Notes under the pieces: generated by a model | Databases searched by the model: none | The model's input: the letters and a program-made list of their open reading frames with translations, nothing else | Told to the model about the DNA's origin: nothing | Origin: Escherichia phage Ec_Makalu_002 | Sequence record: MN709127.1 | Length of the DNA: 64,000 nt | Strand: one strand, 5' to 3' | Shown here: positions 21,064-63,144 of the stretch, in pieces | Layout of the letters: each line of letters opens with the position of its first letter | How positions within the stretch are numbered: position 1 is the first letter of the stretch | Program-made: the position numbers and the translations under genes

Positions 21064-21086
21064 TGAAAAAGGGGCTTAACACCCCC
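21064..21086 (-). terminator. rho-independent terminator ending the early small-gene unit
   Basis: Minus-strand hairpin GGGGUGUUAAGCCCC followed by U-run. Confidence 0.55.
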
Positions 21087-21091
21087 ATTTA

Positions 21092-21304
21092 TTATAATGC
21101 ACCATCGAGCAATTGCTCTAAGGTGTATCCTGAATAGTCTTTTTCAATCAGGATATATTTTCCTACTCGTTTAATACAACCGCGCATTTCAACGTATTCT
21201 GCGTAGTTGATGGTGCGAGTTGTTCCATCTTCTAGTAAAGCAGTACCGATTTCGTTAATGCGGTCATAAGTTACGTCGGTAATGATGATTTCGATGTTAG
21301 CCAT
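21092..21304 (-). CDS. hypothetical protein (70 aa)
   Basis: Track ORF with RBS, preceded by promoter cassette. Confidence 0.55.
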   Translation of the reverse strand: MANIEIIITDVTYDRINEIGTALLEDGTTRTINYAEYVEMRGCIKRVGKYILIEKDYSGYTLEQLLDGAL

Positions 21305-21340
21305 TTGATACTCCTTAGTAGTTCGTTTCGGTATGGGTGT

Positions 21341-21369
21341 ATTATGATATACACCCTCTGTTATGTCAA
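21341..21369 (-). promoter_or_regulatory. PeSL-like early promoter cassette
   Basis: Minus TTGACA-17-CATAAT; stem-loop gggtgtat-N6-atacaccc (21334-21355) covers the -10. Confidence 0.55.
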
Positions 21370-21375
21370 CAACTT

Positions 21376-21556
21376 TTAGAACATTTTTGAAATTAATTCT
21401 GCTTTGATTTCGCAGAGAACATCTAAAGATTTCTCGTCACCCGCTTTTGCTGCTTCTGCTTGCATTTTTGAAATGGCTTCAATGTCAGTGCAATTATAAG
21501 CCGCTTGAACTTTAGCGATTGCGATGATTGCCGATTCGATGGTTAAGTGTTTCATG
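21376..21556 (-). CDS. hypothetical 59-aa protein
   Basis: ATG with GGAGAA RBS; MKHLTIESAIIAIAK... Confidence 0.45.
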
Positions 21557-21587
21557 TTTGATTCTCCTTTCGTTTCGGTATGTGTGC

Positions 21588-21616
21588 AGTATAGGGGATC
21601 GCCGATCCCCTGTCAA
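21588..21616 (-). promoter_or_regulatory. PeSL-like early promoter cassette
   Basis: Minus TTGACA-17-TATACT; spacer is the palindrome aggggatcgccgatcccct (two GATC). Confidence 0.55.
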
Positions 21617-21623
21617 CAACTTT

Positions 21624-22142
21624 TTAGTTATTTTTTAATTGCTCATCTTGCAATAATGCAATCACATGCTGGCGATGTTCTTCCGATTGAGGAACACCGA
21701 AAAAGTTTGTTTTGTAGAAATACTCTAATCGGTCTTCTCGTGTGCTCTCTTCCATCATGATCGCGGGTAGTCCAAGATTTCGGAAACGTCGCTTTTCTGC
21801 TGGCGTAAAATCACTGTAATACAACATAGAATCATCATTACCAGCAATGCTAAACTCATCCTTCATAAAGGAGAATATTGCGTTTAAACGCTGTTTACCG
21901 TCCACGATTTCGATCTCATAGCGAGAGCCATCATCAATCTTAGCCATTGCGATAGCACCAACCGGAAAATCATTAATCAGGTTTTCGATAAACATACGTT
22001 TGTTTTCGGTGTCCCATACCAAAGGACGCTGATAATCTGGGTTCATGTTGATATAGCCATCTTCTAACCACGCCTCATAAACAGAGATGACAAAGTTTTT
22101 AGTATTGGTATAGTAACGGCGTTTAGGCGTTAAACGGTTCAT
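21624..22142 (-). CDS. DUF262 / ParB-like (GmrS N-terminal type) domain protein
   Basis: ATG 22142 with AGGAG RBS; DYQRPLVWD...FPVGAI...IVDGKQRLNAI matches the DUF262 signature; no C-terminal nuclease domain. Confidence 0.6.
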   Translation of the reverse strand: MNRLTPKRRYYTNTKNFVISVYEAWLEDGYINMNPDYQRPLVWDTENKRMFIENLINDFPVGAIAMAKIDDGSRYEIEIVDGKQRLNAIFSFMKDEFSIAGNDDSMLYYSDFTPAEKRRFRNLGLPAIMMEESTREDRLEYFYKTNFFGVPQSEEHRQHVIALLQDEQLKNN

Positions 22143-22143
22143 G

Positions 22144-22476
22144 TTATAGTCTCCTGAATGGATCATCACGTAAATCAATATCTTTTAAGAACTCATCCCA
22201 TGAATGGCGGATAATGTTCTTAATTCTCCAGATAAGCGCAGGGATTGAACGCTCTCCCATCTGGAAGTAAGGATCATATGATCCATATGCCCAATATGCT
22301 ACTACAATTCCACAATCGGCGCAATAATATTCTATTTCACTTGCTGGCGACCAAAGTCCATCAATATGATCACGGATCTTGCTTTCGATGTTATGGCTAT
22401 GGCAATCAGGGCAACGGATGCAATGACCTTGTTTATCGTAATTTGACGTTAGCGAATACTTAAACAATCTCATCAT
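22144..22476 (-). CDS. Zn-ribbon protein (110 aa)
   Basis: CIRCPDC ... CADCG (two CxxC pairs); stop is 1 nt before the next start. Confidence 0.55.
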   Translation of the reverse strand: MMRLFKYSLTSNYDKQGHCIRCPDCHSHNIESKIRDHIDGLWSPASEIEYYCADCGIVVAYWAYGSYDPYFQMGERSIPALIWRIKNIIRHSWDEFLKDIDLRDDPFRRL

Positions 22477-23189
22477 AGATCCTTATTGGCTTCAAATACT
22501 GCCTTTGCGAATCCTCGCGGGGTAAGTGACCTGATAGTCTTTGTTCTGGTTCCTTTCCCGCCTAGCTTAGAATGCTGTTTACTGTACCCTTTATTAATCT
22601 GCAACGGTTTCTTTTCTGGCATTATAAAGCCTTGTCCGGTCCATAAGCAAGTCTTTTTCGGGTACATATCACGGGCGGCAATATACTCAGGAAACGTAGG
22701 ATGCTTATCATCTTCCGGCAAATAACCGCCATATTCCCACGGATGGAACATGTAATCAGGCTTACGCCACATGCTAGAGATAACGCTTACAGGATTCTCT
22801 ATCATGTAGGGAACTCCTAGCCATTCACCCAAATAAGCGGTTATTTTAGCTGCCCTTACATCATGAACTTGAATTAATGGTCCTTGTTCTCGTTTCTTTC
22901 GTTCAAAGTGCGCAGCGCCACTAACAGCTAAATTGGTGCATGGTGGGAATGCAAAGATAATATCCGGTTTCCCCCATTCAAGGTCCATTGCTCTTTCCAG
23001 CCAATTTAAATCAATCCATGTGTTTACATATGTAATGTTTGGATGTTCAAATCGGGTATTATATTTTTTGTATGTACCGTGGTCGCCATCGTCAGCATTA
23101 AAGCAGATCACCTTATGACCTGCTTTAGCCCATTCTAACCCCATTATCCCCGATCCGTCAAAGTTGCAGAATATTAATTTTTGTTTCAT
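22473..23189 (-). CDS. compact C5-cytosine methyltransferase-like protein
   Basis: Motif I-like NFDGSGIMG, motif IV-like FAFPPCTNLAVSGA (PC with catalytic Cys), motif VI-like MIENPV, C-terminal RSLTPRGFAKA; only 238 aa. Confidence 0.5.
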   Translation of the reverse strand: MKQKLIFCNFDGSGIMGLEWAKAGHKVICFNADDGDHGTYKKYNTRFEHPNITYVNTWIDLNWLERAMDLEWGKPDIIFAFPPCTNLAVSGAAHFERKKREQGPLIQVHDVRAAKITAYLGEWLGVPYMIENPVSVISSMWRKPDYMFHPWEYGGYLPEDDKHPTFPEYIAARDMYPKKTCLWTGQGFIMPEKKPLQINKGYSKQHSKLGGKGTRTKTIRSLTPRGFAKAVFEANKDL

Positions 23190-23431
23190 ATACGCCCCTT
23201 TAACCCAACACAGATTTTAGAAGGTTCTTTGCCGTGCCACATTAAGTAAATTCCGTTAATGCGTCCTTGTTTTGTATATGATTCTTTTCTGATCTTCTTA
23301 TAGTGTCGTGCTTCCTCAGCCGATTGTTTAGAATGTCGATCATAAAGGAAGAGGAACAAAGGCCAACCATTAGCGGCCTTAATGCAGTTATTCAAAAATT
23401 CCTTATTTCGTTTAATTAATTTTCTTTTCAC
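23186..23431 (-). CDS. hypothetical basic protein (81 aa)
   Basis: Track ORF with overlapping stop/start in the operon. Confidence 0.5.
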   Translation of the reverse strand: MKRKLIKRNKEFLNNCIKAANGWPLFLFLYDRHSKQSAEEARHYKKIRKESYTKQGRINGIYLMWHGKEPSKICVGLKGRI

Positions 23432-23679
23432 GCTGCCCCCATTGGTTTGATAGTAACAGAATCTAAAAGACCTTTGTTAGCCAGTTCGCGGCAAGTTTTC
23501 AGATCCGCAACTTCCCAGCCAGCCGCAATAAGGTTATCAATGAGGCTGTTAGCAACTTCTTCGCTCATGAAAGAGCACTGTTTGCCGATGGTGTAGCGTA
23601 CACGCTGTAATTTCAGTTTACGGAAGCCTTTAACGTTCAGGTCTTTAGCGATTTTCTTTGCGGTTTCGATGTTAGCCAT
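23428..23679 (-). CDS. hypothetical protein (83 aa), first gene of the operon
   Basis: Track ORF; promoter cassette immediately upstream. Confidence 0.55.
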   Translation of the reverse strand: MANIETAKKIAKDLNVKGFRKLKLQRVRYTIGKQCSFMSEEVANSLIDNLIAAGWEVADLKTCRELANKGLLDSVTIKPMGAA

Positions 23680-23719
23680 TGTTTGATTCTCCTAAGTGGT
23701 ATCTCGTCTTGATGGTTGT

Positions 23720-23748
23720 ATTGTAGGGGAGTTATCCTCCCCTGTCAA
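23720..23748 (-). promoter_or_regulatory. PeSL-like early promoter for operon 23679..21624
   Basis: Minus TTGACA-17-TACAAT; palindrome aggggagttatcctcccct in the spacer. Confidence 0.5.
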
Positions 23749-23762
23749 CACTTTTTATAAAA

Positions 23763-23930
23763 TTATTTGTTAATTTCTGGTGCGTTGCTAGGATAGTAAC
23801 CTTCTTTAACTCCGAGGTATTTCGCAACCATCCCTACAATCTTCTGTGCTACTACAATGTCAAATTTCAGATAATCTTCGCCGTGGGTTTCAATGATATA
23901 TGCTTCACATGCTGCTTTAGTCTCGAACAT
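23763..23930 (-). CDS. small protein (55 aa), copy 1 of a duplicated gene
   Basis: MFETKAACEAYIIETHGEDYLKFDIVVAQKIVGMVAKYLGVKEGYYPSNAPEINK; near-identical to 27046..27213. Confidence 0.55.
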   Translation of the reverse strand: MFETKAACEAYIIETHGEDYLKFDIVVAQKIVGMVAKYLGVKEGYYPSNAPEINK

Positions 23931-23963
23931 TTTGATTCTCCTATTTCGTTTCGGTATGTGTGT

Positions 23964-23992
23964 ATTATAGGGGATCTCCCGATCCCCGTCAA
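23964..23992 (-). promoter_or_regulatory. PeSL-like early promoter cassette
   Basis: Minus TTGACG-17-TATAAT; palindrome ggggatctcccgatcccc. Confidence 0.55.
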
Positions 23993-24006
23993 CAACTTTT
24001 TTAAAA

Positions 24007-24288
24007 TTATTCGTGATTAGTTTCGATATTGTGCATTTTGCACCAGTTCAGCCAATCGCCAAGATCTTGATAGTTGATGCTTTTATCTGCTGCCATCGTT
24101 TTTGTCTTGATACCCATATGTGCGTTATGAGTAAGCATTTTTACAGTGAACTCAATTTTATCGCCTTTAGCTTTAACATCAACCAGTTTGGTCCACTGGC
24201 TACCAGCACCGCGAATGTTCATACCAACGATGTTTCCGATGTATGCTTCTTTGTTGTTCAGGATTTCGGTTGCTTTGATGAATTTCAT
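24007..24288 (-). CDS. hypothetical protein (93 aa)
   Basis: Track ORF with RBS and promoter cassette. Confidence 0.55.
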   Translation of the reverse strand: MKFIKATEILNNKEAYIGNIVGMNIRGAGSQWTKLVDVKAKGDKIEFTVKMLTHNAHMGIKTKTMAADKSINYQDLGDWLNWCKMHNIETNHE

Positions 24289-24321
24289 TTTTGATTCTCC
24301 AGTTCGTTTCGGTATGGGTGT

Positions 24322-24350
24322 ATTATGCTATGTTCTTACTTTGGTGTCAA
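24322..24350 (-). promoter_or_regulatory. PeSL-like early promoter cassette
   Basis: Minus TTGACA-17-CATAAT. Confidence 0.5.
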
Positions 24351-24358
24351 CAACTTTT

Positions 24359-24628
24359 TTAGATATTTTCAGAAATAAATTTTAAAACTTGACGTAAATG
24401 TTTCTCATCTTTGATAGTCGCCGGAAGTTCTTCTTTTACTTCCTGTGCAAGATAGATATTTCCGTTCCAAGTGAAAGACCCGTCTTCGTTTACGCGATAG
24501 CTGAACATCCATTCGCAATCATTTTCGATTTCATATACACACAGAAGGGTGTAATCTTCAAAGCTATTGATTTCAAGGTCGAAGCCGTGGCGTTTTGCAA
24601 AGTTGGTAGTGGTTTTAGTCAGTGCCAT
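24359..24628 (-). CDS. hypothetical protein (89 aa)
   Basis: Track ORF with RBS. Confidence 0.55.
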   Translation of the reverse strand: MALTKTTTNFAKRHGFDLEINSFEDYTLLCVYEIENDCEWMFSYRVNEDGSFTWNGNIYLAQEVKEELPATIKDEKHLRQVLKFISENI

Positions 24629-24668
24629 TGTTTGATTCTCCTAAGTGGTATCTCGTTTCGATGGGTGT

Positions 24669-24697
24669 ATTATGCTATAGGCGTGATCAGGTGTCAA
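24669..24697 (-). promoter_or_regulatory. PeSL-like early promoter cassette
   Basis: Minus TTGACA-17-CATAAT. Confidence 0.5.
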
Positions 24698-24721
24698 TGC
24701 CTTTTTTAAAATTTTATGCAA

Positions 24722-24747
24722 TAAAAAAGCCGACACTAAGGTCGGCT
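24722..24747 (-). terminator. rho-independent terminator
   Basis: Minus-strand hairpin gccgac-N6-gtcggc followed by U-run. Confidence 0.55.
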
Positions 24748-24754
24748 AATAAAA

Positions 24755-25063
24755 TCATTTAGACAAATAATCATTCAGTGCAATCCGGTCGGCATGTTCC
24801 GGCGTTACATCAATCGCAATCACTTTAACGCGTGCTTTCTTGCGACCTGGGTTTTCTCGTAACCAGTGCTCATGACCGTGAACATTTTTATACTGCGATG
24901 CTTCTTCGAAGGTACGGATCGGACCAGGGTAATCAGCGTAAAGGATCTCTAGGTCATCGGTGATGTAAAAATATACGTTGTAATTACTGTTCTCTAGCTT
25001 AAGCAGAGACTTTCGGAACATTGGGAGATTTTCGCGGGTAAATTCAAAAGTAATATCTTTCAT
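24755..25063 (-). CDS. HxHW family paralog A (about 102 aa)
   Basis: Internal ATG 25063 with GAGGA RBS; motifs YFYITDDL ... HGHEHWL ... VIAIDV. Confidence 0.6.
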   Translation of the reverse strand: MKDITFEFTRENLPMFRKSLLKLENSNYNVYFYITDDLEILYADYPGPIRTFEEASQYKNVHGHEHWLRENPGRKKARVKVIAIDVTPEHADRIALNDYLSK

Positions 25064-25085
25064 AGTATTATCCTCAATAGTTGGA

Positions 25086-25108
25086 TGAAAAGGGGGCTTA
25101 ACGCCCCA
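25086..25108 (-). terminator. short hairpin terminator
   Basis: Hairpin GGGGC-UUAAC-GCCCC followed by U-run on the minus strand; same type as 21064..21086. Confidence 0.45.
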
Positions 25109-25112
25109 TATA

Positions 25113-25400
25113 TTAAAACAGTCCTTCCTGTACACCGTAGTAGAGTTCGTCGCTGATAATTTCATTAATGCGACGGTGTGCATATTCCTGATTTGCGAAG
25201 TTGTCAGCAAGTTCTACTTTAGTTTCACCGTCATGAGTCCATTTAGTGATAACTTTACCATCTGCAAATTTGAAGTTGAACTCTTTAGCTACTGCATCGC
25301 GTACCAGACGTGCGAACTTGTTGTTACGGATTGCATTATCGGTTTCGTGTGCAGCGTGAGCAAATTTGTTAACTTTCAGAGTGATAGTGATGTATGCCAT
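25113..25400 (-). CDS. hypothetical protein (95 aa)
   Basis: Track ORF with RBS. Confidence 0.55.
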   Translation of the reverse strand: MAYITITLKVNKFAHAAHETDNAIRNNKFARLVRDAVAKEFNFKFADGKVITKWTHDGETKVELADNFANQEYAHRRINEIISDELYYGVQEGLF

Positions 25401-25446
25401 AATTTGATTCTCCTAGTTAGAAAGTGTATCTCGTTTCGATGGGTGT

Positions 25447-25475
25447 ATTATGCTATACACCCGATCTTATGTCAA
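25447..25475 (-). promoter_or_regulatory. PeSL-like early promoter cassette
   Basis: Minus TTGACA-17-CATAAT; stem-loop gggtgtat-N6-atacaccc (25441-25462). Confidence 0.55.
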
Positions 25476-25483
25476 CACTTTTT

Positions 25484-25762
25484 TTATAAAATAATTTTTT
25501 GATATTTTTCTATGATGTTTGTGTAATCCACATCAACCGCTATCACCGTTGCTTCGAATCCACCGTTTAGCCAATGGCTATGGTCATGATCGTGAAAGAA
25601 ACCAAGACCAGTACGAAGACCTTCTTTATATTCGGCGCGTACATTTAGATCATCATCGATAAACAGATAAAACCATGAATTTTTACTAGGATTGATGATA
25701 CAACCTTTCAGATTAGGGAGAATATCACGACTAAGAATAAACTTATCACCTACTTTGAACAT
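25484..25762 (-). CDS. HxHW family paralog B (about 92 aa)
   Basis: ATG 25762 with GAGGA RBS; FYLFIDDDL ... HDHDHSHWL ... VIAVDV. Confidence 0.6.
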   Translation of the reverse strand: MFKVGDKFILSRDILPNLKGCIINPSKNSWFYLFIDDDLNVRAEYKEGLRTGLGFFHDHDHSHWLNGGFEATVIAVDVDYTNIIEKYQKIIL

Positions 25763-25766
25763 AATA

Positions 25767-26087
25767 TTAGTCCTCACTTATAAGGTCAAACCAATTGTTT
25801 TTCGCATAATGCTTAATGCGTGCTTGATCTGCTTCCGCTGGTGATAGATTCCATGCAACCACTACAACTTCTGACGCGTCGTCATCCGTTTCTGATACCC
25901 AATGATTGTGATTCATACAGTTATTTGCGATCGAGTGAGCAAATGATTTCATCACTGGAGACGTATAATCATAGTAACGGATTTTCAGATTTTCATCAAC
26001 ATACAAGTAGATCGTATAAGGTTTATATTCAGTAACCAGTAACAGACAGTTACGCAATTCTGGGAAAATCTTTTTAGTTAATTTCAT
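25767..26087 (-). CDS. HxHW family paralog C (about 106 aa)
   Basis: ATG 26087 with GAGGA RBS; YLYVDENL ... HNHW ... VVVVAW. Confidence 0.55.
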   Translation of the reverse strand: MKLTKKIFPELRNCLLLVTEYKPYTIYLYVDENLKIRYYDYTSPVMKSFAHSIANNCMNHNHWVSETDDDASEVVVVAWNLSPAEADQARIKHYAKNNWFDLISED

Positions 26088-26088
26088 T

Positions 26089-26307
26089 TTATAATCCTCG
26101 GTCGCGGCTATAGTACACGGTACGCCATACAATTTCATGTTTCGTGTCGCTCCAGCACACGATCTCATTTACTCTTAAATCTTTGTTATCAACAAAAGAT
26201 GAACATTGTGACGCTTCTTTCATCATTTTATCTGCTGTTTTCTCATCAAATACAGCACAGATTTCTTTATACACTCGATAATCTTTGAATTGACTCTGGA
26301 TACCCAT
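26089..26307 (-). CDS. small protein, member 1 of a tandem paralog pair
   Basis: QFKDYRVYKEICAVFDEKTADKMMKEASQCSSF, homologous to the next ORF; start codon uncertain. Confidence 0.45.
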   Translation of the reverse strand: MGIQSQFKDYRVYKEICAVFDEKTADKMMKEASQCSSFVDNKDLRVNEIVCWSDTKHEIVWRTVYYSRDRGL

Positions 26308-26524
26308 AATTAACACCATTCCAACCAATTGTTTTTGAGAAAACGTTTATCCACTGTTGAGTGTAGCATGTTTCTTTCCATGATACAATACGAGTAGAAT
26401 AATGGTTTTTGTTTCCAGAAAAGGACGGGCATTTTGATGCATCTTCCATCATCTTTTCGGCGAACTCCGCGTCATATACCCGCAGGATCTGTTGATATGC
26501 TTTATAATCTTTAAATTTGCTCAT
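26267..26524 (-). CDS. small protein, member 2 of a tandem paralog pair
   Basis: MSKFKDYKAYQQILRVYDAEFAEKMMEDASKCPSF; 3' end overlaps the previous ORF. Confidence 0.5.
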   Translation of the reverse strand: MSKFKDYKAYQQILRVYDAEFAEKMMEDASKCPSFSGNKNHYSTRIVSWKETCYTQQWINVFSKTIGWNGVNYGYPESIQRLSSV

Positions 26525-26789
26525 AATTGTTAACTACCTTATCAGCTTCTTTTATTGTTTTTACATCAACTGCGATAATCCGTAAAGGTTCGTCGAAGGT
26601 CCACCAGTGGTCATGAATATCAGCTTGTGATTTATCACCAAAGGAATCACGAATATCATTTTTACATTTATAGCTAATATGGCCTTCATAGTCAACATAA
26701 AGGTAATTATCGAAAATCGGCGTTTTTAAGATCATACCGAAAAATCTTTCTTTGTGTGTCTTATCAAGTGTTGCAGTAATTCGCATCAT
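26511..26789 (-). CDS. HxHW family paralog D (92 aa)
   Basis: AGAGGAA RBS; YLYVDYEG ... HDHWW ... IIAVDV. Confidence 0.6.
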   Translation of the reverse strand: MMRITATLDKTHKERFFGMILKTPIFDNYLYVDYEGHISYKCKNDIRDSFGDKSQADIHDHWWTFDEPLRIIAVDVKTIKEADKVVNNYEQI

Positions 26790-26801
26790 AATATATTCCT
26801 C

Positions 26802-26981
26802 TTAGAAAGGGATGGTCATTTCTTGAGCTTGTACATTCTCGTTAGGATTAAACTTCATCCAACCGATATTGTCTACCAGCATATGTACATTTTTATCATA
26901 TCCTACGTGAGTAGTCAACACTAAATGTGCTTTACCTTCAACGATGATTTCCATGTACTTCTGAACTTCGATAGCTTTCAT
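26802..26981 (-). CDS. hypothetical 59-aa protein
   Basis: ATG behind a promoter cassette; below track cut-off. Confidence 0.4.
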   Translation of the reverse strand: MKAIEVQKYMEIIVEGKAHLVLTTHVGYDKNVHMLVDNIGWMKFNPNENVQAQEMTIPF

Positions 26982-27013
26982 TTTGATTCTCCGTTTGTTG
27001 TCTTGATGGGAGT

Positions 27014-27042
27014 ATCTTACTACTCCCTTTAATCATTGTCAA
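27014..27042 (-). promoter_or_regulatory. PeSL-like early promoter cassette
   Basis: Minus TTGACA-17-TAAGAT; stem-loop gggagtatcttactactccc. Confidence 0.5.
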
Positions 27043-27045
27043 CTA

Positions 27046-27213
27046 TTATTTGTTAATTTCCGGTGCGTTGCTCGGATAGTAACCTTCTTTAACACCCAGA
27101 TATTTTGCAACCATTCCGGTGATCTTCTGTGCTACTACGATATCGAATTTCAGGTAGTCTTCACCGTGGTTTGCTACAATGTATGCTTCGCATTCTGCTT
27201 TAGTCTGGAACAT
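27046..27213 (-). CDS. small protein (55 aa), copy 2 of the duplicated gene
   Basis: MFQTKAECEAYIVANHGEDYLKFDIVVAQKITGMVAKYLGVKEGYYPSNAPEINK; ATG 27213. Confidence 0.55.
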   Translation of the reverse strand: MFQTKAECEAYIVANHGEDYLKFDIVVAQKITGMVAKYLGVKEGYYPSNAPEINK

Positions 27214-27247
27214 TTTTGATTCTCCTATATCTCGTTGGTATGTGTGC

Positions 27248-27276
27248 ATTATAGGGGATCGGTGATCCCCTGTCAA
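27248..27276 (-). promoter_or_regulatory. PeSL-like early promoter cassette
   Basis: Minus TTGACA-17-TATAAT; palindrome ggggatcggtgatcccc. Confidence 0.55.
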
Positions 27277-27283
27277 CAACTTT

Positions 27284-27580
27284 TTATGATTTTTCTTTAT
27301 ATGCGTATTGAATAAATTGGTCCGCCACTTCGTCGGCTTTTTCGGGTTTGACTTCTGACGCCAGGACAATAGCTAGATCGGTTTCGTCGTTCCCGTCATA
27401 CCAATGATTATGAGTGTCTTTTTCTTTGATATAGAATGAGTCATTTGGAGTTGGACGACAATATACGTCTAAATTCTCGTCGATGTAAAAGATCCAATCT
27501 TCATAAAGAATAACCGTATTAGCAAGGTTCTTATTACCTTCAACGAAAGGTTCGGTTACAAACAAATCAGTACGTTCCAT
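27284..27580 (-). CDS. HxHW family paralog E (98 aa)
   Basis: GAGGA RBS; IFYIDENL ... HNHWY ... AIVLA. Confidence 0.55.
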   Translation of the reverse strand: MERTDLFVTEPFVEGNKNLANTVILYEDWIFYIDENLDVYCRPTPNDSFYIKEKDTHNHWYDGNDETDLAIVLASEVKPEKADEVADQFIQYAYKEKS

Positions 27581-27595
27581 AGTATTTTCCTCAAA

Positions 27596-27757
27596 TTAAG
27601 AAAAAGCGTTGAAAACAACCGCCAACACAACTACGTTAGCGATAAGGCTTAAAAAGCATTTCTTGAAACTTTCAGTGCAGATACCAATACTGGCAGGAAT
27701 TACACCGATCACGATAGCATAAAGAATAACTGCGATTTCTTGAAATACACCGTTCAT
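27596..27757 (-). CDS. small two-helix membrane protein (53 aa)
   Basis: ATG with GAGGA RBS; MNGVFQEIAVILYAIVIGVIPASIGICTESFKKCFLSLIANVVVLAVVFNAFS. Confidence 0.45.
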   Translation of the reverse strand: MNGVFQEIAVILYAIVIGVIPASIGICTESFKKCFLSLIANVVVLAVVFNAFS

Positions 27758-27814
27758 AATATTATCCTCAAAGTATGGGAGAGTGTTACCCCTCCCGATG
27801 ATTGTTATATTGCA

Positions 27815-28147
27815 TCACACAAAATGGCGTGTCAATGCTTCTTTTGCGGTTCCGCTAAGATTCTCGATCTCTCCTGGCATAACATCAACCGCCAGAACTT
27901 CTACAACATCCTCTGTTCCTAACCAGTGAGTATGACCTTTGTAGAACTTGATGCCCATATTGCCTTCTTCGTCCCATTTAACGCCCCATTTAACGTTATC
28001 ACTAGCCCACCACACATCACCGTCGATAAAGTTGATGTAAAGCACACTACGCCACATTGAATTAGTTACTTTCAATACCGCGCCTTTCATCTCTTCCACG
28101 GTGTGGTCTTCCATTTTGAAGACCTCGCCTACCTGAACTTTTGCCAT
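27815..28147 (-). CDS. HxHW family paralog F (110 aa)
   Basis: RBS GAGAGGTG; VLYINFIDGDV ... KGHTHWL ... VLAVDV. Confidence 0.6.
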   Translation of the reverse strand: MAKVQVGEVFKMEDHTVEEMKGAVLKVTNSMWRSVLYINFIDGDVWWASDNVKWGVKWDEEGNMGIKFYKGHTHWLGTEDVVEVLAVDVMPGEIENLSGTAKEALTRHFV

Positions 28148-28164
28148 TTAGTCACCTCTCTTTA

Positions 28165-28380
28165 TTACATAACAATCACGCCAGCCGTTGAAAGTTGATG
28201 TTTCAACTGAGCATTTTCTGCTACTGTCAAATCAATGATTTCTTGTGACGCTGCAATCATATAGCCATTGGTGATATTGTTTTGCATCAGTTCAATGGTT
28301 TCTTCGTTGTAGCGGATTTTAGCGATGATTTCGTTGAAGTTCATGTTTGATTCTCCTAGTTCGTTTCGGTATGTGTGCAT
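28165..28380 (-). CDS. hypothetical protein (71 aa)
   Basis: Track ORF with AGGAGAA RBS. Confidence 0.55.
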   Translation of the reverse strand: MHTYRNELGESNMNFNEIIAKIRYNEETIELMQNNITNGYMIAASQEIIDLTVAENAQLKHQLSTAGVIVM

Positions 28381-28408
28381 TATAGGGGATCTCCCGACCC
28401 CCTGTCAA
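28379..28408 (-). promoter_or_regulatory. PeSL-like early promoter cassette
   Basis: Minus TTGACA-18-TATAAT; near-palindrome ggggatctcccgaccccc. Confidence 0.55.
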
Positions 28409-28421
28409 CAACTTTTTTGAA

Positions 28422-28898
28422 TTATTTTTCTTGATGCTCGCGCTCGTACTTTTCGAAATAAAATTCTACTGGCTGATCGTGGATTGAAAGCAAGCCAAAG
28501 CGTTTAGCCGCACGTAATCCCATGTTACGTTGAATGTACTTCTGGAAGTTCTCGCGTATACACTTACGCCAGTATTCTAAGCCCATACAGCTTTTGTAAA
28601 GATTGCATTGCACACAAGCCGGATTCATGTTGTCAAGTATATCGTGCTCCGGTTTATGCATTCCTACAACCTTATACTTCCACGACCCATCATCATTACG
28701 GGCAATTCGTCCATTTTCATCATAGACTACTTTTGAGCGTCGCAATACTGGTTTGATGTGGTCTGCGTGCCAGCGATCCCCTAGTTCCTCGCCACAATAG
28801 GCACAACGTCCACCGTATTTCATTTTCAGGATCTGGCGTTGCTCTTTCTTTGACAATTTTTTAGGTTTAGGGGCTTTCGCCCCTTCATTATCACACAT
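28422..28898 (-). CDS. HNH endonuclease
   Basis: CAYCGEEL...WHADHIKP...CVQCN (His-Me finger with flanking Cys pairs). Confidence 0.7.
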   Translation of the reverse strand: MCDNEGAKAPKPKKLSKKEQRQILKMKYGGRCAYCGEELGDRWHADHIKPVLRRSKVVYDENGRIARNDDGSWKYKVVGMHKPEHDILDNMNPACVQCNLYKSCMGLEYWRKCIRENFQKYIQRNMGLRAAKRFGLLSIHDQPVEFYFEKYEREHQEK

Positions 28899-36203: not shown

Positions 36204-36236
36204 CTTGATACTCCTTAGTTGTTTTGGGATGGGAGT

Positions 36237-36265
36237 ATCTTACTACTCCCGTGATATGCTGTCAA
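36237..36265 (-). promoter_or_regulatory. PeSL-like early promoter cassette
   Basis: Minus TTGACA-17-TAAGAT; stem-loop gggagtatcttactactccc. Confidence 0.5.
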
Positions 36266-36273
36266 CTGCTTTT

Positions 36274-36423
36274 TTATGCAACCGCAAACATCAACATTTG
36301 AACATTCTTGGCTGTCTGGCTTTCAAAGTTCTGACATTCTTTGATAATGTCCTCTACTTTCTCGCCGGAGATCTCCGCGTAAGTTTCGATTGCCATTTTC
36401 AGTACCGCGTCAAAGTTGTTCAT
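36274..36423 (-). CDS. hypothetical 49-aa protein
   Basis: ATG with RBS; MNNFDAVLKMAIETYAEISGEKVEDIIKECQNFESQTAKNVQMLMFAVA. Confidence 0.4.
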   Translation of the reverse strand: MNNFDAVLKMAIETYAEISGEKVEDIIKECQNFESQTAKNVQMLMFAVA

Positions 36424-36461
36424 TTGATTCTCCTTAAAGTGTATTTCGTTTCGATGGGGGT

Positions 36462-36490
36462 ATATTAATACCCCCGTTTCATGCTGTCAA
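36462..36490 (-). promoter_or_regulatory. PeSL-like early promoter cassette
   Basis: Minus TTGACA-17-TAATAT; stem-loop gggggtatattaataccccc. Confidence 0.5.
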
Positions 36491-36709
36491 CTACTTTTTA
36501 ATGACAAGTTCGAATTTTGCTACCTTGCGTCCTCGTTTATTGAAAGCAACCCACGGACGGTTTTCAATGTAGAACAATTCTTCGCCAATAATGAATACTG
36601 GCTGATTGTAAAGGCGACCCATCAGGTCACGCTGGCGAATGGTATTAGATTCGTATACTTCGCCTACTACAAAGTGCTTGCTGATAGAGTCGGTGCAAGT
36701 AAATTTCAT
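36491..36709 (-). CDS. hypothetical protein (72 aa)
   Basis: Track ORF with RBS. Confidence 0.5.
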   Translation of the reverse strand: MKFTCTDSISKHFVVGEVYESNTIRQRDLMGRLYNQPVFIIGEELFYIENRPWVAFNKRGRKVAKFELVIKK

Positions 36710-36742
36710 TTTGATTCTCCTTTGTTTCGTTTCGATGGGAGT

Positions 36743-36771
36743 ATCTTACAACTCCCAATATTCAGTGTCAA
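36743..36771 (-). promoter_or_regulatory. PeSL-like early promoter cassette
   Basis: Minus TTGACA-17-TAAGAT; stem-loop gggagtatcttacaactccc. Confidence 0.5.
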
Positions 36772-36778
36772 CTGCTTT

Positions 36779-36997
36779 TTACTTGTTGTATTCATTCCAC
36801 CAACGAGTAAGTTTATCGATTATTTTTGTGTTTCTATCCAATTTCTCCCACCGTTTACGCGGGTTTATAAGCCGGAATAGGTAGGGTGTACTTGTTAAGT
36901 GAACTCGGTCAAAATAATGGTTGATAAGCTGGCATTCAATTCTCAATTTCATCTTTTTACGATGAAAATATGCAATTACTTGTTCTTCTGTTTCCAT
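36779..36997 (-). CDS. hypothetical protein (72 aa)
   Basis: Track ORF with RBS. Confidence 0.5.
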   Translation of the reverse strand: METEEQVIAYFHRKKMKLRIECQLINHYFDRVHLTSTPYLFRLINPRKRWEKLDRNTKIIDKLTRWWNEYNK

Positions 36998-37021
36998 ATG
37001 TTCCTCCGTTTCGATGCGTGC

Positions 37022-37050
37022 ATTATGCTATGGCAAGATCCGATTGTCAA
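37022..37050 (-). promoter_or_regulatory. early promoter
   Basis: Minus TTGACA-17-CATAAT. Confidence 0.45.
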
Positions 37051-37097
37051 CACCCAATAACAAAAAAGTCGCCACTATGGGCGACTTAGGTTAAACA

Positions 37098-39254: not shown

Positions 39255-39285
39255 AATAAAATCCTCATTTGTTTTTGATGGTTGC

Positions 39286-39314
39286 ATTATAGCGGGGATT
39301 TCTCCCCGCGTCAA
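39286..39314 (-). promoter_or_regulatory. PeSL-like early promoter cassette
   Basis: Minus TTGACG-17-TATAAT; palindrome gcggggatttctccccgc. Confidence 0.5.
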
Positions 39315-39322
39315 CACTTATT

Positions 39323-41566
39323 TTACAGTTTGCAAGATGAACATTCGCTAGCGTCTTCCGTACCATCAGCACCATCACGCACGTTAGCGTAATACAGTGT
39401 CTTGAGGCCGTAATATTGAGCAAACAGCATATCATCTAACACATCAGCAATATCGACTTTACCAGTCTTATAAGTGCTTGGATCGTAGGATGTATTGGAA
39501 CTAATCGCCTGATCTACAAACTTCTGCATGATCGCTGCCAGTGTCAGATAAGGTTTGTTACCTTTCTTGATCAGTGTCCAAAGCAGGTCAATAACATCAG
39601 CATTATTCTCTACGTTCGGAATAACCTGATTAAATTGTCCTTCCTTTGATCCTTTAACCGATACAATCCCGCGAGGCGGTTCTATTCCATTGGTGCTATT
39701 AGATACCTGAGAAGACGACTCACAAGGCATCAGCGCCGATAGTGTACTGTTACGAATGCCATATTTTTTCAGGTCTTCGCGCAGTTCTTCCCAATCCATC
39801 TCATACACCGGGTCAACCAGTTCATCTACTGTCTTTTTGTACCAGTCAATAGGAAGTTCACCGCGACCATAACGTGTTTCGTGCATCAGTTCGCAAGCGC
39901 CCTTCTCTTTTGCTAGCTGCACACTAGCTTTAATCAGAGCATATTGCAAGCGTTCAAACGTTTTATGCGTAAACTCGTTAGCGTCTTCATATGTGAAGAA
40001 ATTATCCGCCAGATATGATGCAAAGTTAGTCACACCAACACCCAGAGAGCGACGTTTCTTAGCTGTCAGTGCTTGTTTTACAGGATAATCCTGATAATCT
40101 AACAGGTTATCAAGTGCACGCACCATAACCATAGCGATCCGCTCTACTTCTTCCATGTTTTCGATATCGAAATTACCTAAAACATATGCTGCCAAAGTGC
40201 ATAGGCTGATCTCTGAATCATCACGACCCATCGGTTTTGTCGGCAGAGCGATTTCACAACACAGGTTAGATTGTTTAATCGGTGCTACATTACGAATAAA
40301 CGCCCCGTGATTGTTCATGTTGTCTGTGAACGCTGGATAGATTCGACCAGTGTTAAAACGTTCAATTGCCACCGCTAAAAACAGGTCTTCGGCTTTAACA
40401 CGAGTTTTACGCACACTCGGATCTTTTTCCAGTTTTTCGTAAAGCTGGCGGAAACCTTCCTCATCTCGGAAGTACAGATCCCACAACAAGCCACCCGCAA
40501 CATCTGGACTAAACAGAGTAATGTAATCGCGTTTAAGGAATCGCTCTACCATCAGGTTATTAATCTGTACGCCGTAGTCAAGATGACGAATGCGGTTATC
40601 TTCTACCCCTTTGTTGTTCTTCAACACAATAAGACTTTCAAACTCTAAATGCCACATTGGGTAATAGAGAGTCGCCGCCCCGCCACGAATACCGCCTTGT
40701 GAGCATGACTTAACAGCAGTCTGAAAATGTTTCCAGAATGGGATAACGCCAGTATGACGAACTTCACCATACCCGATCTTAGATCCTTCCGCTCGAATCA
40801 TACCAGCATTGATACCGATACCAGCACGCTTACTAATATACTTGATGATTGCATTTGCTGTTTCGTTGATGCCCTGCAATGAGTCATCACTTTCAATCAC
40901 CACACACGAACTAAATTGTCGTGTTGGAGTACGCACACCAGCCATGATCGGAGTAGGCAGAGAAATTTGCTTATTCGCAACAGCATTATAAAAATCAATC
41001 ACATGTTCAAGTCGATTTTCTGTCTCTTCTTGATGTAAGCACATACCGATCAGCATATAAGCAAATTGCGGTGTTTCAATGATTTTCTTAGTGCTGCGAT
41101 CCTGAACAAGATATTTCTCTTTTAACTGCATTGCACCAGCATAGGTCATTTTAAAATCAAGTTTATGATCGATGAATTTCTCCAGATATTCCACTTCTTC
41201 ACGGGAATACTTTTGCAGAATTTCGCGATCATATTTTCCGGTTGCAATATTACGCTCAATATGGCTATAAAAATCAATCGGTTGGAATTGACCGTATACT
41301 GATTTACGAAGCGCGAACATTGCAAGGTTACTTGCTACATATTGATAATCAGGTGTTTCTACAGTAATGTTATCTGCGGCGACCTTAATCAATACTTTCT
41401 GGATATCGTTAGTAGACATACCTTCTGTCAGAAGTGGTTCAACCATATCAAACAATTCATATGGATCAACGTTATGACCTTCGGCTGCCGCTTCCAGAAT
41501 TTTCATTACTTTTTCTTTTTCAAACGGAACAGTCAGACCGGAAGACTTAACAACATTTTTAATCAT
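39323..41566 (-). CDS. nrdA: ribonucleotide reductase large subunit
   Basis: 747 aa; ATP-cone N-terminus, catalytic NLCCEI-type segment, C-terminal Cys pair. Confidence 0.93.
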   Translation of the reverse strand: MIKNVVKSSGLTVPFEKEKVMKILEAAAEGHNVDPYELFDMVEPLLTEGMSTNDIQKVLIKVAADNITVETPDYQYVASNLAMFALRKSVYGQFQPIDFYSHIERNIATGKYDREILQKYSREEVEYLEKFIDHKLDFKMTYAGAMQLKEKYLVQDRSTKKIIETPQFAYMLIGMCLHQEETENRLEHVIDFYNAVANKQISLPTPIMAGVRTPTRQFSSCVVIESDDSLQGINETANAIIKYISKRAGIGINAGMIRAEGSKIGYGEVRHTGVIPFWKHFQTAVKSCSQGGIRGGAATLYYPMWHLEFESLIVLKNNKGVEDNRIRHLDYGVQINNLMVERFLKRDYITLFSPDVAGGLLWDLYFRDEEGFRQLYEKLEKDPSVRKTRVKAEDLFLAVAIERFNTGRIYPAFTDNMNNHGAFIRNVAPIKQSNLCCEIALPTKPMGRDDSEISLCTLAAYVLGNFDIENMEEVERIAMVMVRALDNLLDYQDYPVKQALTAKKRRSLGVGVTNFASYLADNFFTYEDANEFTHKTFERLQYALIKASVQLAKEKGACELMHETRYGRGELPIDWYKKTVDELVDPVYEMDWEELREDLKKYGIRNSTLSALMPCESSSQVSNSTNGIEPPRGIVSVKGSKEGQFNQVIPNVENNADVIDLLWTLIKKGNKPYLTLAAIMQKFVDQAISSNTSYDPSTYKTGKVDIADVLDDMLFAQYYGLKTLYYANVRDGADGTEDASECSSCKL

Positions 41567-62567: not shown

Positions 62568-62601
62568 AATATATTCCTCAATGTCTTGTCTTGATGGGAG
62601 T

Positions 62602-62630
62602 ATCTTACTACTCCCTTAATCCGGTGTCAA
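62602..62630 (-). promoter_or_regulatory. PeSL-like early promoter cassette
   Basis: Minus TTGACA-17-TAAGAT; stem-loop gggagtatcttactactccc. Confidence 0.5.
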
Positions 62631-62853: not shown

Positions 62854-62862
62854 CAACTATTT

Positions 62863-63138: not shown

Positions 63139-63144
63139 CAGTTT

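What the first reader, a model, noticed from the sequence alone, without database searches (positions are those of the whole stretch)
21300..28410. Hyperplastic region between alt and gene 30: about 25 small minus-strand ORFs behind repeated promoter-stem-loop cassettes
At least ten near-identical cassettes occur here, all on the minus strand, each directly upstream of a small ORF. Each is TTGACA, a 16-18 bp spacer and a TATAAT-like hexamer, with a G-rich inverted repeat in the spacer or over the -10, then a Shine-Dalgarno and ATG. The same cassette recurs at 36.2-37.05 kb, 39.29 kb and 62.6-63.45 kb. This matches what I recall as PeSL elements (promoter-early stem-loop) proposed to drive modular gene shuffling in RB49-like phages; that attribution is from memory. 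It marks the region as the likely home of novel accessory or anti-defence genes.
Basis: partly seen in the sequence, partly recalled or inferred. Interest (0 to 1): 0.6.

Follow-up and report, generated by a model that had tools for sequence, protein, structure and literature searches.

The report
Known phage promoter/stem-loop cassettes (PeSLs)
The repeated promoter-plus-hairpin cassettes are real, but they are the already published "PeSL" elements of RB49-like coliphages, lying in the same variable region where those elements were first described, so the finding is correct but not new.

Summary
Between alt (18973-21024) and DNA ligase gene 30 (28891-30393) lie 24 small minus-strand genes. 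Ten cassettes of about 80-90 bp precede ten of them, and there is one atypical cassette. Each cassette has an A-rich tract, TTGACA, a 17-18 bp spacer, a TATAAT-like hexamer, a conserved leader and GGAGAATCAAA-ATG. Eight of the ten carry a 7-8 bp G-rich hairpin (-12 to -14 kcal/mol), placed in the spacer or over the -10.

The window is a Krischvirus (RB49-like) genome. This interval is orthologous to RB49 ORF185-212, the region in which Arbiol et al. 2010 defined PeSLs and tested promoter activity, terminator activity and mini-circle formation.

Comparison with 16 relatives adds natural chimeric cassettes at deletion junctions. Ten of about 15 gene gain or loss events have a cassette at the junction. 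However, junctions with cassettes are not used significantly more often than those without (7/10 vs 6/15, p=0.14), and the hairpins lack U-tracts. Twenty-one of the 24 genes have no assignable function, and none shows anti-defence evidence.

The parts
28336..28421 (-). PeSL upstream of ORF209 (28165-28344), class A. Hairpin GGGGGTC-ggga-GATCCCC lies in the 18-bp spacer and contains one G.T pair. Hexamers are TTGACA and TATAAT.
   Evidence: E 1.8e-20; -14.3 kcal/mol; 12 of 12
27755..27835 (-). Atypical element. TTGACA lies inside the end of ORF208, the -10 is poor, the hairpin GGGAG..CTCCC lies downstream, then comes the ribosome-binding repeat TTGAGGATAATATTATG of the 53-aa ORF.
   Evidence: Not found by the cassette profile.
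27210..27287 (-). PeSL upstream of ORF205 (27046-27213), class A. Hairpin GGGGATC-acc-GATCCCC lies in the spacer.
   Evidence: 3.5e-18; -12.8; 12 of 12. It is a deletion junction in FL04 and phiS.
26975..27053 (-). PeSL upstream of ORF204 (26802-26981), class B. Hairpin GGGAGTA-gtaaga-TACTCCC lies over the -10 hexamer TAAGAT.
   Evidence: 1.1e-11; -12.2
25396..25487 (-). PeSL upstream of ORF198 (25113-25400), class B. Hairpin GGGTGTAT-agcata-ATACACCC lies over the -10 hexamer CATAAT.
   Evidence: 9.2e-17; -13.8. RB49, Phi1, GEC-3S and SFHK24 carry the compensated stem GGGGATAT/ATATCCCC at this site.
24625..24710 (-). Promoter cassette upstream of ORF194 (24359-24628) with no stem; only the 3' arm ATACACCC remains. 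It is the insertion point of ORF195/196 in seven relatives.
   Evidence: 4.7e-16; no fold
24280..24363 (-). Promoter cassette upstream of ORF193 (24007-24288) with no stem, in this window and in all 12 relatives that carry ORF193.
   Evidence: (1.8e-16)
23927..24005 (-). PeSL upstream of ORF191 (23763-23930), class A. Hairpin GGGGATC-ggga-GATCCCC. It marks the slot where RB49, MIZ6 and G2494 carry ORF192 and where JSE carries an unrelated gene.
   Evidence: 1e-19; -13.9
23675..23761 (-). PeSL upstream of the ORF190-189.1-189-188-187 run, class A variant. Hairpin GGGGAG-gataa-CTCCCC.
   Evidence: 1.5e-15; -13.6
21550..21626 (-). PeSL upstream of ORF186 (21376-21555), class A. Hairpin GGGGATC-ggc-GATCCCC.
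   Evidence: 2.6e-19; -12.8. It is a junction of the ORF186 deletion in JK32, phiS and Sf20.
21300..21381 (-). PeSL upstream of ORF185 (21092-21304), class B. Hairpin GGGTGTAT-atcata-ATACACCC.
   Evidence: 6.9e-18; -12.1. Chimeric versions occur in JK32 and MIZ4.
21092..28898 (-). 24 small genes (53-238 aa), orthologous to RB49 ORF185-212. Relative to RB49 the window lacks ORF192, 195/196, 210 and 211, and ORF207 is replaced by an unrelated 53-aa ORF.
21070..21086 (-). Canonical intrinsic terminator (hairpin followed by a T-run) after ORF185. Two others lie at 24728-24747 and 25093-25107. None of the three is a PeSL hairpin.
36204..37054 (-). Four further cassettes between nrdB and nrdA, at 36265, 36490, 36771 and 37050.
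39263..39325 (-). Further class A cassette. Hairpin CGGGGA-gaaa-TCCCCG.
   Evidence: -15.1
62576..63460 (-). Four further cassettes, at 62630, 62853, 63137 and 63450.

Best explanation
These are PeSL cassettes, the composite early-promoter/stem-loop elements of RB49-type (Krischvirus) phages, in the hyperplastic region between alt and gene 30.

Proposed mechanism:
1. Immediately after infection, host sigma-70 RNA polymerase starts at each near-consensus promoter, helped by the A-rich upstream tract. It transcribes one to six small genes through a conserved leader and a strong Shine-Dalgarno sequence.
2. Each hairpin lies upstream of its own transcription start. It therefore appears only in read-through RNA from the unit upstream, where it attenuates or terminates that transcript and insulates the units from one another.
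3. The 80-90 bp cassettes are direct repeats. The phage's own homologous recombination machinery can cross over between two of them. This deletes the genes in between (possibly as a mini-circle) or inserts a cassette-plus-gene module, always at a gene boundary and with expression signals intact.

Status of each step:
- Shown here: the anatomy, the orthology to published PeSLs, conservation of pairing across different stem sequences, and chimeric cassettes at natural deletion junctions.
- Shown by others in RB49/phi1: promoter activity, terminator activity of one hairpin, and mini-circles.
- Inferred for this genome: steps 1 to 3 themselves.
For: Identity and orthology. Sixty-four Krischvirus records match at 93-99% identity. 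Gene order equals RB49 ORF185-212 and phi1 ORF185-212. The published definition and experiments concern this same region.

Promoter. Nine cassettes match the sigma-70 hexamers at 11-12 of 12 positions and one at 10 of 12, with 17-18 bp spacing. GEC-3S annotators marked the orthologous sites as promoters. The RB49 early-promoter consensus agrees with 5'-end mapping of early transcripts, according to Nolan et al. 2006 (PMC1524935).

Structure.
- Eight of the ten cassettes fold at -12 to -14 kcal/mol, with z of -2.2 to -4.3.
- Across 14 genomes, 54 of 71 distinct cassette cores have a perfect stem of at least 6 bp. The stems use about eight different arm sequences, always with G-run polarity.
- At the ORF198 site, GGGTGTAT/ATACACCC and GGGGATAT/ATATCCCC differ by two compensated pairs. 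98% of cells pair, against 28-63% when the 3' partner is slid.
- The only internal non-Watson-Crick pairs found are G.T (2 cases) and never A.C.

Recombination.
- The JK32 cassette before ORF185 combines the 5' half of the ORF186 cassette with the ORF185 leader, and ORF186 is gone.
- The MIZ4 cassette combines the 5' part of the ORF191 cassette with the ORF185 leader, and ORF186-191 are gone.
- The JK32 cassette before ORF190 combines the ORF191 cassette with the ORF190 leader, and ORF191 is gone.
- FL04 joins the cassette after ORF206 to ORF191, and ORF205-193 are gone.
- phiS joins an ORF210-type cassette to ORF205, and ORF206-209 are gone.
- Insertions of ORF192, ORF195/196, ORF210 and ORF210+211 sit at cassettes, and the inserted modules carry a cassette of their own.
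- Eight or nine of 16-17 distinct breakpoints fall in the 10.6% of the region that is cassette (binomial p of 2e-5 to 9e-5).
- Cassettes are present at the equivalent position in every relative that has the gene.
Against: - Measured per gene junction rather than per base, the enrichment is not significant. Seven of 10 cassette junctions against 6 of 15 plain junctions were used by indels (Fisher p=0.14).
- Five events lie at junctions without a cassette: 22140, 23188-23415, 25520-26305, 27595-27755 and 28146.
- The nrdB-nrdA stretch (35800-39600) holds five cassettes, yet all 58 matching relatives cover at least 80% of it. Cassettes alone therefore do not make a region plastic.
- No PeSL hairpin is followed by a U-run (1-3 T in the next 8 nt). 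The terminator scan picks none of them on the minus strand. Termination thus rests on one published lacZ assay of a different PeSL.
- Two cassettes work without any stem in all relatives.
- Cassettes are no more diverged between genomes than the flanking genes (ratio 0.4-1.3), which gives no sign of unusually frequent conversion.
- No transcript or circle data exist for this genome.
Confidence: 0.85

Rival explanations
1. The cassettes are ordinary strong early promoters that look alike only because promoter, UP element and ribosome-binding site are each near their optimum. They are passengers, not drivers. Gene gain and loss is seen at gene boundaries simply because other recombinants die.
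For: Junction usage is not significantly biased towards cassettes (7/10 vs 6/15, p=0.14). Five events lie at cassette-free junctions, some using only a 16-20 nt ribosome-binding repeat. The nrdB-nrdA cluster has five cassettes but constant gene content in 58 of 58 relatives.
Against: Similarity extends through the leader CATACCGAAACGAA, which has no known promoter role. Five natural deletions have junctions that are clean chimeras of two cassettes. Inverse-PCR circles with crossovers inside PeSLs were sequenced in RB49 and phi1.
Confidence: 0.1
2. The inverted repeat acts as double-stranded DNA, as an operator for a dimeric phage or host protein or as a methylation-sensitive switch that shuts early promoters off. 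It does not act as an RNA hairpin.
For: It sits in the spacer or over the -10, the classical operator position. Class A arms each contain GATC, a Dam site (seen directly in the sequence). The hairpins lack U-tracts. The 2010 authors themselves speculate about a protein that binds GGGG...CCCC.
Against: About eight unrelated arm sequences and three different positions keep the pairing but not the sequence. Compensated changes occur at one orthologous site. Wobbles are G.T only. Classes B and GGGGAG lack GATC. One PeSL hairpin cut lacZ expression as strongly as rrnB T1.
Confidence: 0.04
3. The hairpins are recombination signals in their own right. Extruded cruciforms or hairpins would be cut or bound by a structure-specific nuclease, for example an endonuclease VII type or the HNH protein next to gene 30. 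The system would then work like an integron rather than by plain homology.
For: An HNH gene (ORF212, 28422-28898) borders the region. The G-run polarity of all stems is conserved. Mosig's GGGC/GCCC-associated T4 deletions are cited by the 2010 paper.
Against: The crossover points seen here lie in the A-rich tract, or in the leader or ribosome-binding part between the -10 and the ATG. They do not lie at the stem. The stemless cassette 24697 is also an insertion point. No integrase-like gene was found in the region.
Confidence: 0.03

Closest known systems
PeSLs of coliphages RB49 and phi1 (Arbiol, Comeau, Kutateladze, Adamia, Krisch 2010, PMC2839356)
   Same: Same elements at orthologous positions, covering the cassettes before ORF185, 186, 190, 191, 193, 194, 198, 204, 205 and 209. 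They share the same composition: AT-rich tract holding the upstream stop codon, sigma-70 hexamers, polyG/polyC stem in the spacer or over the -10, Shine-Dalgarno and ATG. They lie in the same region, HPR3 between alt and gene 30.
   Different: Only allelic detail differs. The window lacks ORF192 (as phi1 does), and also ORF195/196, 210 and 211. Its cassette before ORF209 therefore directly follows ORF212. Loop and -10 variants also differ.
PeSL-like elements of other T4-type phages (PST/T4, nt-1/KVP40; Comeau et al. 2014, PMC4122927)
   Same: The same concept: a composite promoter-terminator motif flanking variable genes in hyperplastic regions.
   Different: Those are analogues built on other promoter consensus sequences and weaker stems. 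In IMG/VR, the exact class A core of this window occurs only on two Krischvirus-sized contigs of 150-165 kb.
Morons of lambdoid phages (Hendrix et al. 2000, as discussed in PMC2839356)
   Same: Single accessory genes that carry their own promoter and terminator.
   Different: Moron signals are not repeated sequences and are not thought to mediate the insertion. Here the signals are a repeat family, and the junctions are chimeras of two repeats.
Integron gene cassettes (attC hairpins)
   Same: Small promoter-served gene modules, a circular intermediate has been proposed, and a hairpin-forming repeat sits at each boundary.
   Different: No integrase is present. Crossovers map outside the stem. 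The cassette carries the promoter itself.

Membership tests
PeSL (promoter-early stem-loop) cassettes | Sigma-70-like -35 and -10 hexamers at consensus spacing | tested here: met
   Ten sites score 10-12 of 12 with 17-18 bp spacers. They are the top ten minus-strand hits of the scan.
PeSL (promoter-early stem-loop) cassettes | AT-rich tract upstream of the -35 that contains the stop codon of the upstream gene | tested here: met
   The tract TAAAAAAGTTG / TAAAAAGTG directly precedes TTGACA in all ten. The stop codons of ORF186, 187, 191, 193, 194, 199, 205, 206 and 212 lie within it.
PeSL (promoter-early stem-loop) cassettes | Stable stem-loop, typically polyG...polyC, in the spacer, over a hexamer, or just up- or downstream | tested here: met
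   Eight of ten fold at -12 to -14 kcal/mol. Five have the stem in the spacer and three over the -10. Two cassettes (24697, 24350) do not meet this feature.
PeSL (promoter-early stem-loop) cassettes | Shine-Dalgarno and start codon of a downstream small ORF at the 3' end | tested here: met
   GGAG(A/T)ATCAA followed by ATG occurs in all ten, 30-40 nt (up to 47 nt at 25475) after the -10.
PeSL (promoter-early stem-loop) cassettes | Concentrated in hyperplastic regions, upstream of genes of unknown function | tested here: met
   Ten cassettes lie in 7.9 kb. Coverage of this interval in relatives ranges from 38% to 99%. Twenty-one of 24 genes have no assignable function. Caveat: the cluster at 36-39 kb lies in a stretch of constant gene content.
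PeSL (promoter-early stem-loop) cassettes | Insertions, deletions and replacements between close relatives have PeSLs at their borders | tested here: met
   Ten of about 15 events in 16 relatives have a cassette at the border. Five deletions have chimeric cassettes at the junction. The per-junction enrichment is not significant.
PeSL (promoter-early stem-loop) cassettes | Orthology to the named PeSLs of RB49 and phi1 | tested here: met
   The cassettes are collinear with RB49 ORF185c-212c at 91.6-98.0% identity. Cassette sequences are nearly identical to those of RB49 and Phi1 at each position.
PeSL (promoter-early stem-loop) cassettes | Promoter activity, terminator activity of the stem-loop, and formation of mini-circles | not testable with these tools
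   These were shown experimentally only for RB49/phi1 PeSL206/205, 193/192 and 211/210 and for ORFan192/210. The window's hairpins lack U-tracts.
Canonical intrinsic (Rho-independent) terminators | GC-rich hairpin followed directly by a U-run | tested here: not met
   Only 1-3 T occur in the 8 nt after each PeSL stem. The scan reports three other minus-strand terminators and no PeSL hairpin.
Rfam RNA families | Match to a curated covariance model | tested here: not met
   The only hit is a chance sub-threshold one, snoU54, at E 0.27 and 23.5 bits against a gathering score of 35.

The most novel reading that the evidence does not exclude
The most novel reading not excluded is that gene exchange in this region is not passive homology. 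It could instead be a two-tier, partly active system:
1. The G-run hairpins would be recognised by a structure-specific phage protein, for example the neighbouring HNH protein or an endonuclease VII type enzyme, that starts the exchange of cassette-plus-gene modules.
2. A second, shorter repeat, the ribosome-binding motif TGAGGAWAATAYTATG, would mediate swaps exact to the ORF. This motif has 10 copies against 0.27 expected, all on the minus strand. An example of such a swap is the replacement of ORF207 by an unrelated 53-aa hydrophobic ORF at 27596-27757.
Probability: 0.1. Interest if true: 0.55.

Novelty: already known. Interest (0 to 1): 0.2.

Why it matters
PeSLs are one of the few concrete mechanisms proposed for how large lytic phages shuffle their many small genes of unknown function. 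Recognising them correctly tells an annotator three things: where early transcription units begin, which genes are likely to come and go between isolates, and where to look for host-takeover or counter-defence genes.

Nothing here changes that picture. The comparison with 16 genomes adds natural chimeric junctions that fit the published model. It also adds two cautions. Cassettes are not sufficient for plasticity, and a third of the events use junctions that have no cassette.

Tried and rejected
1. Are cassettes hot spots of divergence or conversion between otherwise near-identical genomes? No. Mismatch density in cassettes is 0.4-1.3 times that of the rest of the region in all 16 relatives.

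2. Does a G.T versus A.C wobble asymmetry show RNA-level selection? Only 2 G.T and 0 A.C were found, too few to carry weight.

3. Formal covariation. It was possible only for the 14 sequences that share one register. Two compensated pairs appear, probably from a single event or a cassette swap. The class with GGGAGTA stems pairs in a register shifted by 2, so the classes cannot be pooled.

4. Rfam search of the region found nothing.

5. The FL04 difference was first read as replacement by a new 519-bp gene. That was wrong. The annotated gene is an ORF207+ORF206 fusion, and the event is a cassette-to-cassette deletion of ORF205-193.

6. Function of the six-member paralog family. It has no Pfam match and no PDB sequence match. 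An AlphaFold model (pLDDT 79) gave no meaningful PDB fold match (best E 0.49). In BFVD it matched only uncharacterised Krischvirus proteins.

7. Literature on transcription-start mapping in Krischvirus. Nothing was found in the searchable library. Only the statement in Nolan et al. 2006 about RB49 5'-end mapping was available.

8. Spread of the exact class A core outside Krischvirus. Only two IMG/VR contigs carry it, both of 150-165 kb.

Full report
WHAT IS THERE

Read on the minus strand, the interval between a 683-aa gene (18973-21024) and a 500-aa gene (28891-30393) holds 24 short genes of 53-238 aa. The two flanking genes are annotated in relatives as the Alt ADP-ribosyltransferase and DNA ligase gp30.

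Ten of the 24 genes are preceded by a cassette of about 80-90 bp. Each cassette has an A-rich tract that contains the stop codon of the upstream gene (TAAAAAAGTTG). This is followed by TTGACA, a 17-bp spacer (18 bp at 28408), and TATAAT, TATACT, TACAAT, CATAAT or TAAGAT. Then comes a conserved leader (ACACACATACCGAAACGAA or ACACCCATCGAAACGAGATA...), then GGAGAATCAAA and ATG. The first T of the -35 hexamer lies at 28408, 27276, 27042, 25475, 24697, 24350, 23992, 23748, 21616 and 21369.

IS IT MORE THAN CHANCE?

These ten are the ten best minus-strand promoter-like sites of the region. Nine match 11-12 of 12 hexamer positions and one matches 10 of 12. The loose pattern TTGAC-N18-TANNAT occurs 17 times in the window against 0.98 expected.

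A profile HMM built from the ten finds ten further copies with E of 3.5e-4 to 1e-13. All are on the minus strand, at 36265, 36490, 36771, 37050, 39314, 44841, 62630, 62853, 63137 and 63450.

Eight of the ten cassettes in the region fold into a 7-8 bp G-rich hairpin of -12.1 to -14.3 kcal/mol. At most 3% of dinucleotide shuffles reach the observed energy.
- In five cassettes the stem GGGGATC..GATCCCC or GGGGAG..CTCCCC fills the spacer.
- In three cassettes the stem GGGTGTAT..ATACACCC or GGGAGTA..TACTCCC lies over the -10.
- Cassettes 24697 and 24350 have no stem and keep only the 3' arm.

An eleventh element (27835-27755) has a poor -10 and a hairpin downstream of it. The copies are 56-85% identical to each other rather than near-identical. 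Only 10-11 of the 24 genes have their own cassette.

WHAT THE WINDOW IS

The interval matches 64 phage records at 93-99% identity. All that are classified are Krischvirus (RB49-like T4-type coliphages), and the closest is Ec_Makalu_003 at 99%.

Gene order maps one to one onto RB49 ORF185c-ORF212c and phi1 ORF185-212. Relative to RB49 the window lacks ORF192, ORF195/196, ORF210 and ORF211, and ORF207 is replaced by an unrelated 53-aa ORF.

Arbiol et al. 2010 (PMC2839356) defined PeSLs, 'promoter-early stem-loops', in these two phages. They describe the same composition, five positional subclasses of the stem-loop, and about 50 copies per genome, mostly in hyperplastic regions upstream of ORFans.

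Their experiments used elements of this same region:
- PeSL206/205 gave about 13,000 Miller units in a lacZ fusion.
- The stem-loop of PeSL211/210 reduced lacZ as strongly as rrnB T1.
- Inverse PCR recovered circles containing ORF191-194, ORF192-193 and ORF210, with crossovers between the -10 and the ATG of two PeSLs.

Nolan et al. 2006 (PMC1524935) state that the RB49 early-promoter consensus agrees with 5'-end mapping of early transcripts. The annotators of GEC-3S marked the orthologous sites as promoters.

STRUCTURE IS CONSERVED, SEQUENCE IS NOT

I extracted the cassettes of the window and 13 relatives with the profile and grouped them by downstream gene. A cassette is present at the equivalent position in every genome that has the gene. 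Fifty-four of 71 distinct cores have a perfect stem of at least 6 bp. About eight different arm sequences are used, always with the G-run on the 5' arm.

Before ORF198, the window and most relatives have GGGTGTAT/ATACACCC, while RB49, Phi1, GEC-3S and SFHK24 have GGGGATAT/ATATCCCC. That is two adjacent pairs changed on both sides. 98% of cells pair, against 28-63% when the 3' partner is slid. This is probably a single event or a cassette swap, so it is modest evidence.

Before ORF209 the stem is GGGGATC/GATCCCC in most genomes and GGGGAG/CTCCCC in FL04, JSE and G2494. The only internal non-Watson-Crick pairs are two G.T. Conserved pairing across different sequences and positions argues for a folded single strand rather than a sequence-specific duplex operator.

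DO THE HAIRPINS TERMINATE?

Each hairpin lies upstream of its own transcription start, so it can act only on read-through RNA from upstream. None is followed by a U-run; there are 1-3 T in the next 8 nt.

The terminator scan instead finds three canonical terminators at 21070-21086, 24728-24747 and 25093-25107. Attenuation by the PeSL hairpins is thus taken from the published assay of one related element. It is not predicted from the sequence. I rate this step at roughly 0.5-0.6.

DO CASSETTE BOUNDARIES COINCIDE WITH GENE GAIN AND LOSS?

I chained blastn alignments of window 20000-30500 against 16 relatives and read the junctions.

Events with a cassette at the junction:
1. ORF186 deleted in JK32, phiS and Sf20. 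The breakpoints 21345 and 21557 lie in the leaders of two cassettes.
2. ORF186-191 deleted in MIZ4 (21345 and 23931).
3. ORF191 deleted in JK32 and UPWr_E1 (23770 and 23931).
4. ORF192 inserted at 24007-24011 in RB49, MIZ6 and G2494.
5. An unrelated 312-bp gene inserted in the same slot in JSE.
6. ORF205-193 deleted in FL04 by a crossover in the A-rich/-35 part of the cassettes at 27276 and 23992.
7. ORF195/196 inserted at the cassette 24625-24710 in seven relatives.
8. ORF210 inserted at 28329-28435 in Phi1, GEC-3S, FL04 and MIZ4.
9. ORF210+211 inserted there in RB49, FL37, JSE and G2494.
10. ORF206-209 deleted in phiS (27300 and 28360).

In events 1, 2, 3, 6 and 10 the surviving cassette is a clean chimera: the 5' part of one cassette joined to the leader of the other. 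This is what the published excision model predicts.

Events at junctions without a cassette:
- A 180-bp gene inserted at 22140 in FL04.
- Loss or replacement of ORF189.1 (23188-23415).
- A replacement at 25520-26305 in JSE.
- The ORF207 swap or deletion (27595-27755).
- A 267-bp gene inserted at 28146.

STATISTICS AND CAVEATS

Eight or nine of 16-17 distinct breakpoints fall in the 10.6% of the region that is cassette (p of 2e-5 to 9e-5). All breakpoints, however, lie at gene boundaries.

Among the 25 gene junctions, 7 of the 10 with a cassette and 6 of the 15 without one are used (Fisher p=0.14). The data therefore fit 'cassettes are good recombination substrates' but do not exclude 'any gene boundary will do'.

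The stretch 35800-39600 holds five cassettes. Yet all 58 matching relatives cover at least 80% of it, against 5 of 64 for the alt-gene 30 interval. Cassettes are thus not sufficient for plasticity.

Cassettes are as conserved between genomes as the genes around them.

GENE CONTENT

- ORF187 (21624-22142) has only the N-terminal GmrSD/DUF262 domain.
- ORF188 has a weak zinc-ribbon match.
- ORF189 (22473-23189) falls in a PHROG of DNA methyltransferases.
- ORF212 (28422-28898) is an HNH endonuclease.
- The rest have no annotated family function.

Twenty-three of the 24 genes belong to PHROG families. The exception is the 53-aa hydrophobic ORF at 27596-27757.

Six genes (RB49 ORF197, 199, 200, 203, 206 and 208) form one paralog family with an invariant H-x-H-W motif. 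An AlphaFold model of this family (pLDDT 79) matches nothing informative.

Nothing supports or excludes an anti-defence role for any of these genes.

VERDICT

The elements are the published PeSLs at their type locus, so novelty is 'already known' and interest is low.

The most novel reading left open has a probability of about 0.1. It is that exchange is partly active, with hairpins recognised by a nuclease. It also supposes that a second, shorter repeat at ribosome-binding sites (TGAGGAWAATAYTATG; 10 copies against 0.27 expected) mediates swaps exact to the ORF.

Noticed in passing
window 24755-25063, 25484-25762, 25767-26087, 26511-26789, 27284-27580, 27815-28147 (all minus strand): Six of the 24 genes are paralogs (20-30% identity) with an invariant H-x-H-W motif and a following IAVDV-like strand. 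They have no Pfam match and no PDB sequence match. The AlphaFold model (pLDDT 79) has no informative fold match, and the only relatives found are uncharacterised Krischvirus proteins.
   Followed up: partly
window 27596-27757 (-): A 53-aa hydrophobic ORF replaces ORF207 (63 aa, soluble) exactly from start codon to stop codon. Only two of 50,697 phage records (FL15, G37-3) encode it, and it has no PHROG family. UPWr_E1 has ORF207 deleted just as precisely.
   Followed up: partly
window 25061-25076, 27578-27593, 27755-27770 and seven other sites (all minus strand): A second repeat, the ribosome-binding motif TGAGGAWAATAYTATG, occurs 10 times with at most 2 mismatches against 0.27 expected. It precedes genes that have no PeSL, and it flanks the ORF207 swap and deletion.
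   Followed up: partly
window 23763-23930 and 27046-27213 (-): ORF191 and ORF205 are 89% identical 55-aa paralogs, each directly behind a class A cassette. They form a repeat of about 250 bp placed 3.3 kb apart. FL04 has lost everything between them.
   Followed up: yes
window 24625-24710 and 24280-24363 (-): Two cassettes keep the 3' arm ATACACCC but have no 5' arm. The cassette before ORF193 is stemless in all 12 relatives that have the gene. JSE, MIZ6 and MIZ4 keep a partial 6-bp stem before ORF194.
   Followed up: partly
window 35800-39600: Five cassettes lie between nrdB and nrdA. Yet all 58 matching relatives cover at least 80% of this stretch, so gene content there is essentially constant. 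This contrasts with the alt-gene 30 region.
   Followed up: partly
window 21624-23679 (-): One cassette (23748) serves a five-gene run: ORF190, ORF189.1, a DNA methyltransferase (ORF189), a zinc-ribbon protein (ORF188) and a protein with only the DUF262/GmrSD N-terminal domain (ORF187). MIZ4 lacks this whole block together with ORF186 and ORF191.
   Followed up: no
class A hairpins, e.g. window 27248-27276, 21588-21616, 23964-23992: Each arm of the GGGGATC...GATCCCC stems contains GATC, a Dam or MboI site. That puts two such sites inside the promoter spacer. The other stem classes lack it.
   Followed up: no
window 21335-21356 and 25440-25463 (+ strand): Read on the plus strand, the two class B hairpins are followed by T-rich sequence and are flagged as terminator-like. 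They might also stop antisense transcription, or the flag may be a chance result of loose criteria.
   Followed up: no
L011 (phage G2494) about 10540-10629; L007 (phage FL04) 4481-4999: In G2494 the ORF186 start codon reads ATA behind an intact cassette, so the gene is probably dead. In FL04 the annotated 519-bp gene is an in-frame fusion of ORF207 and ORF206.
   Followed up: partly
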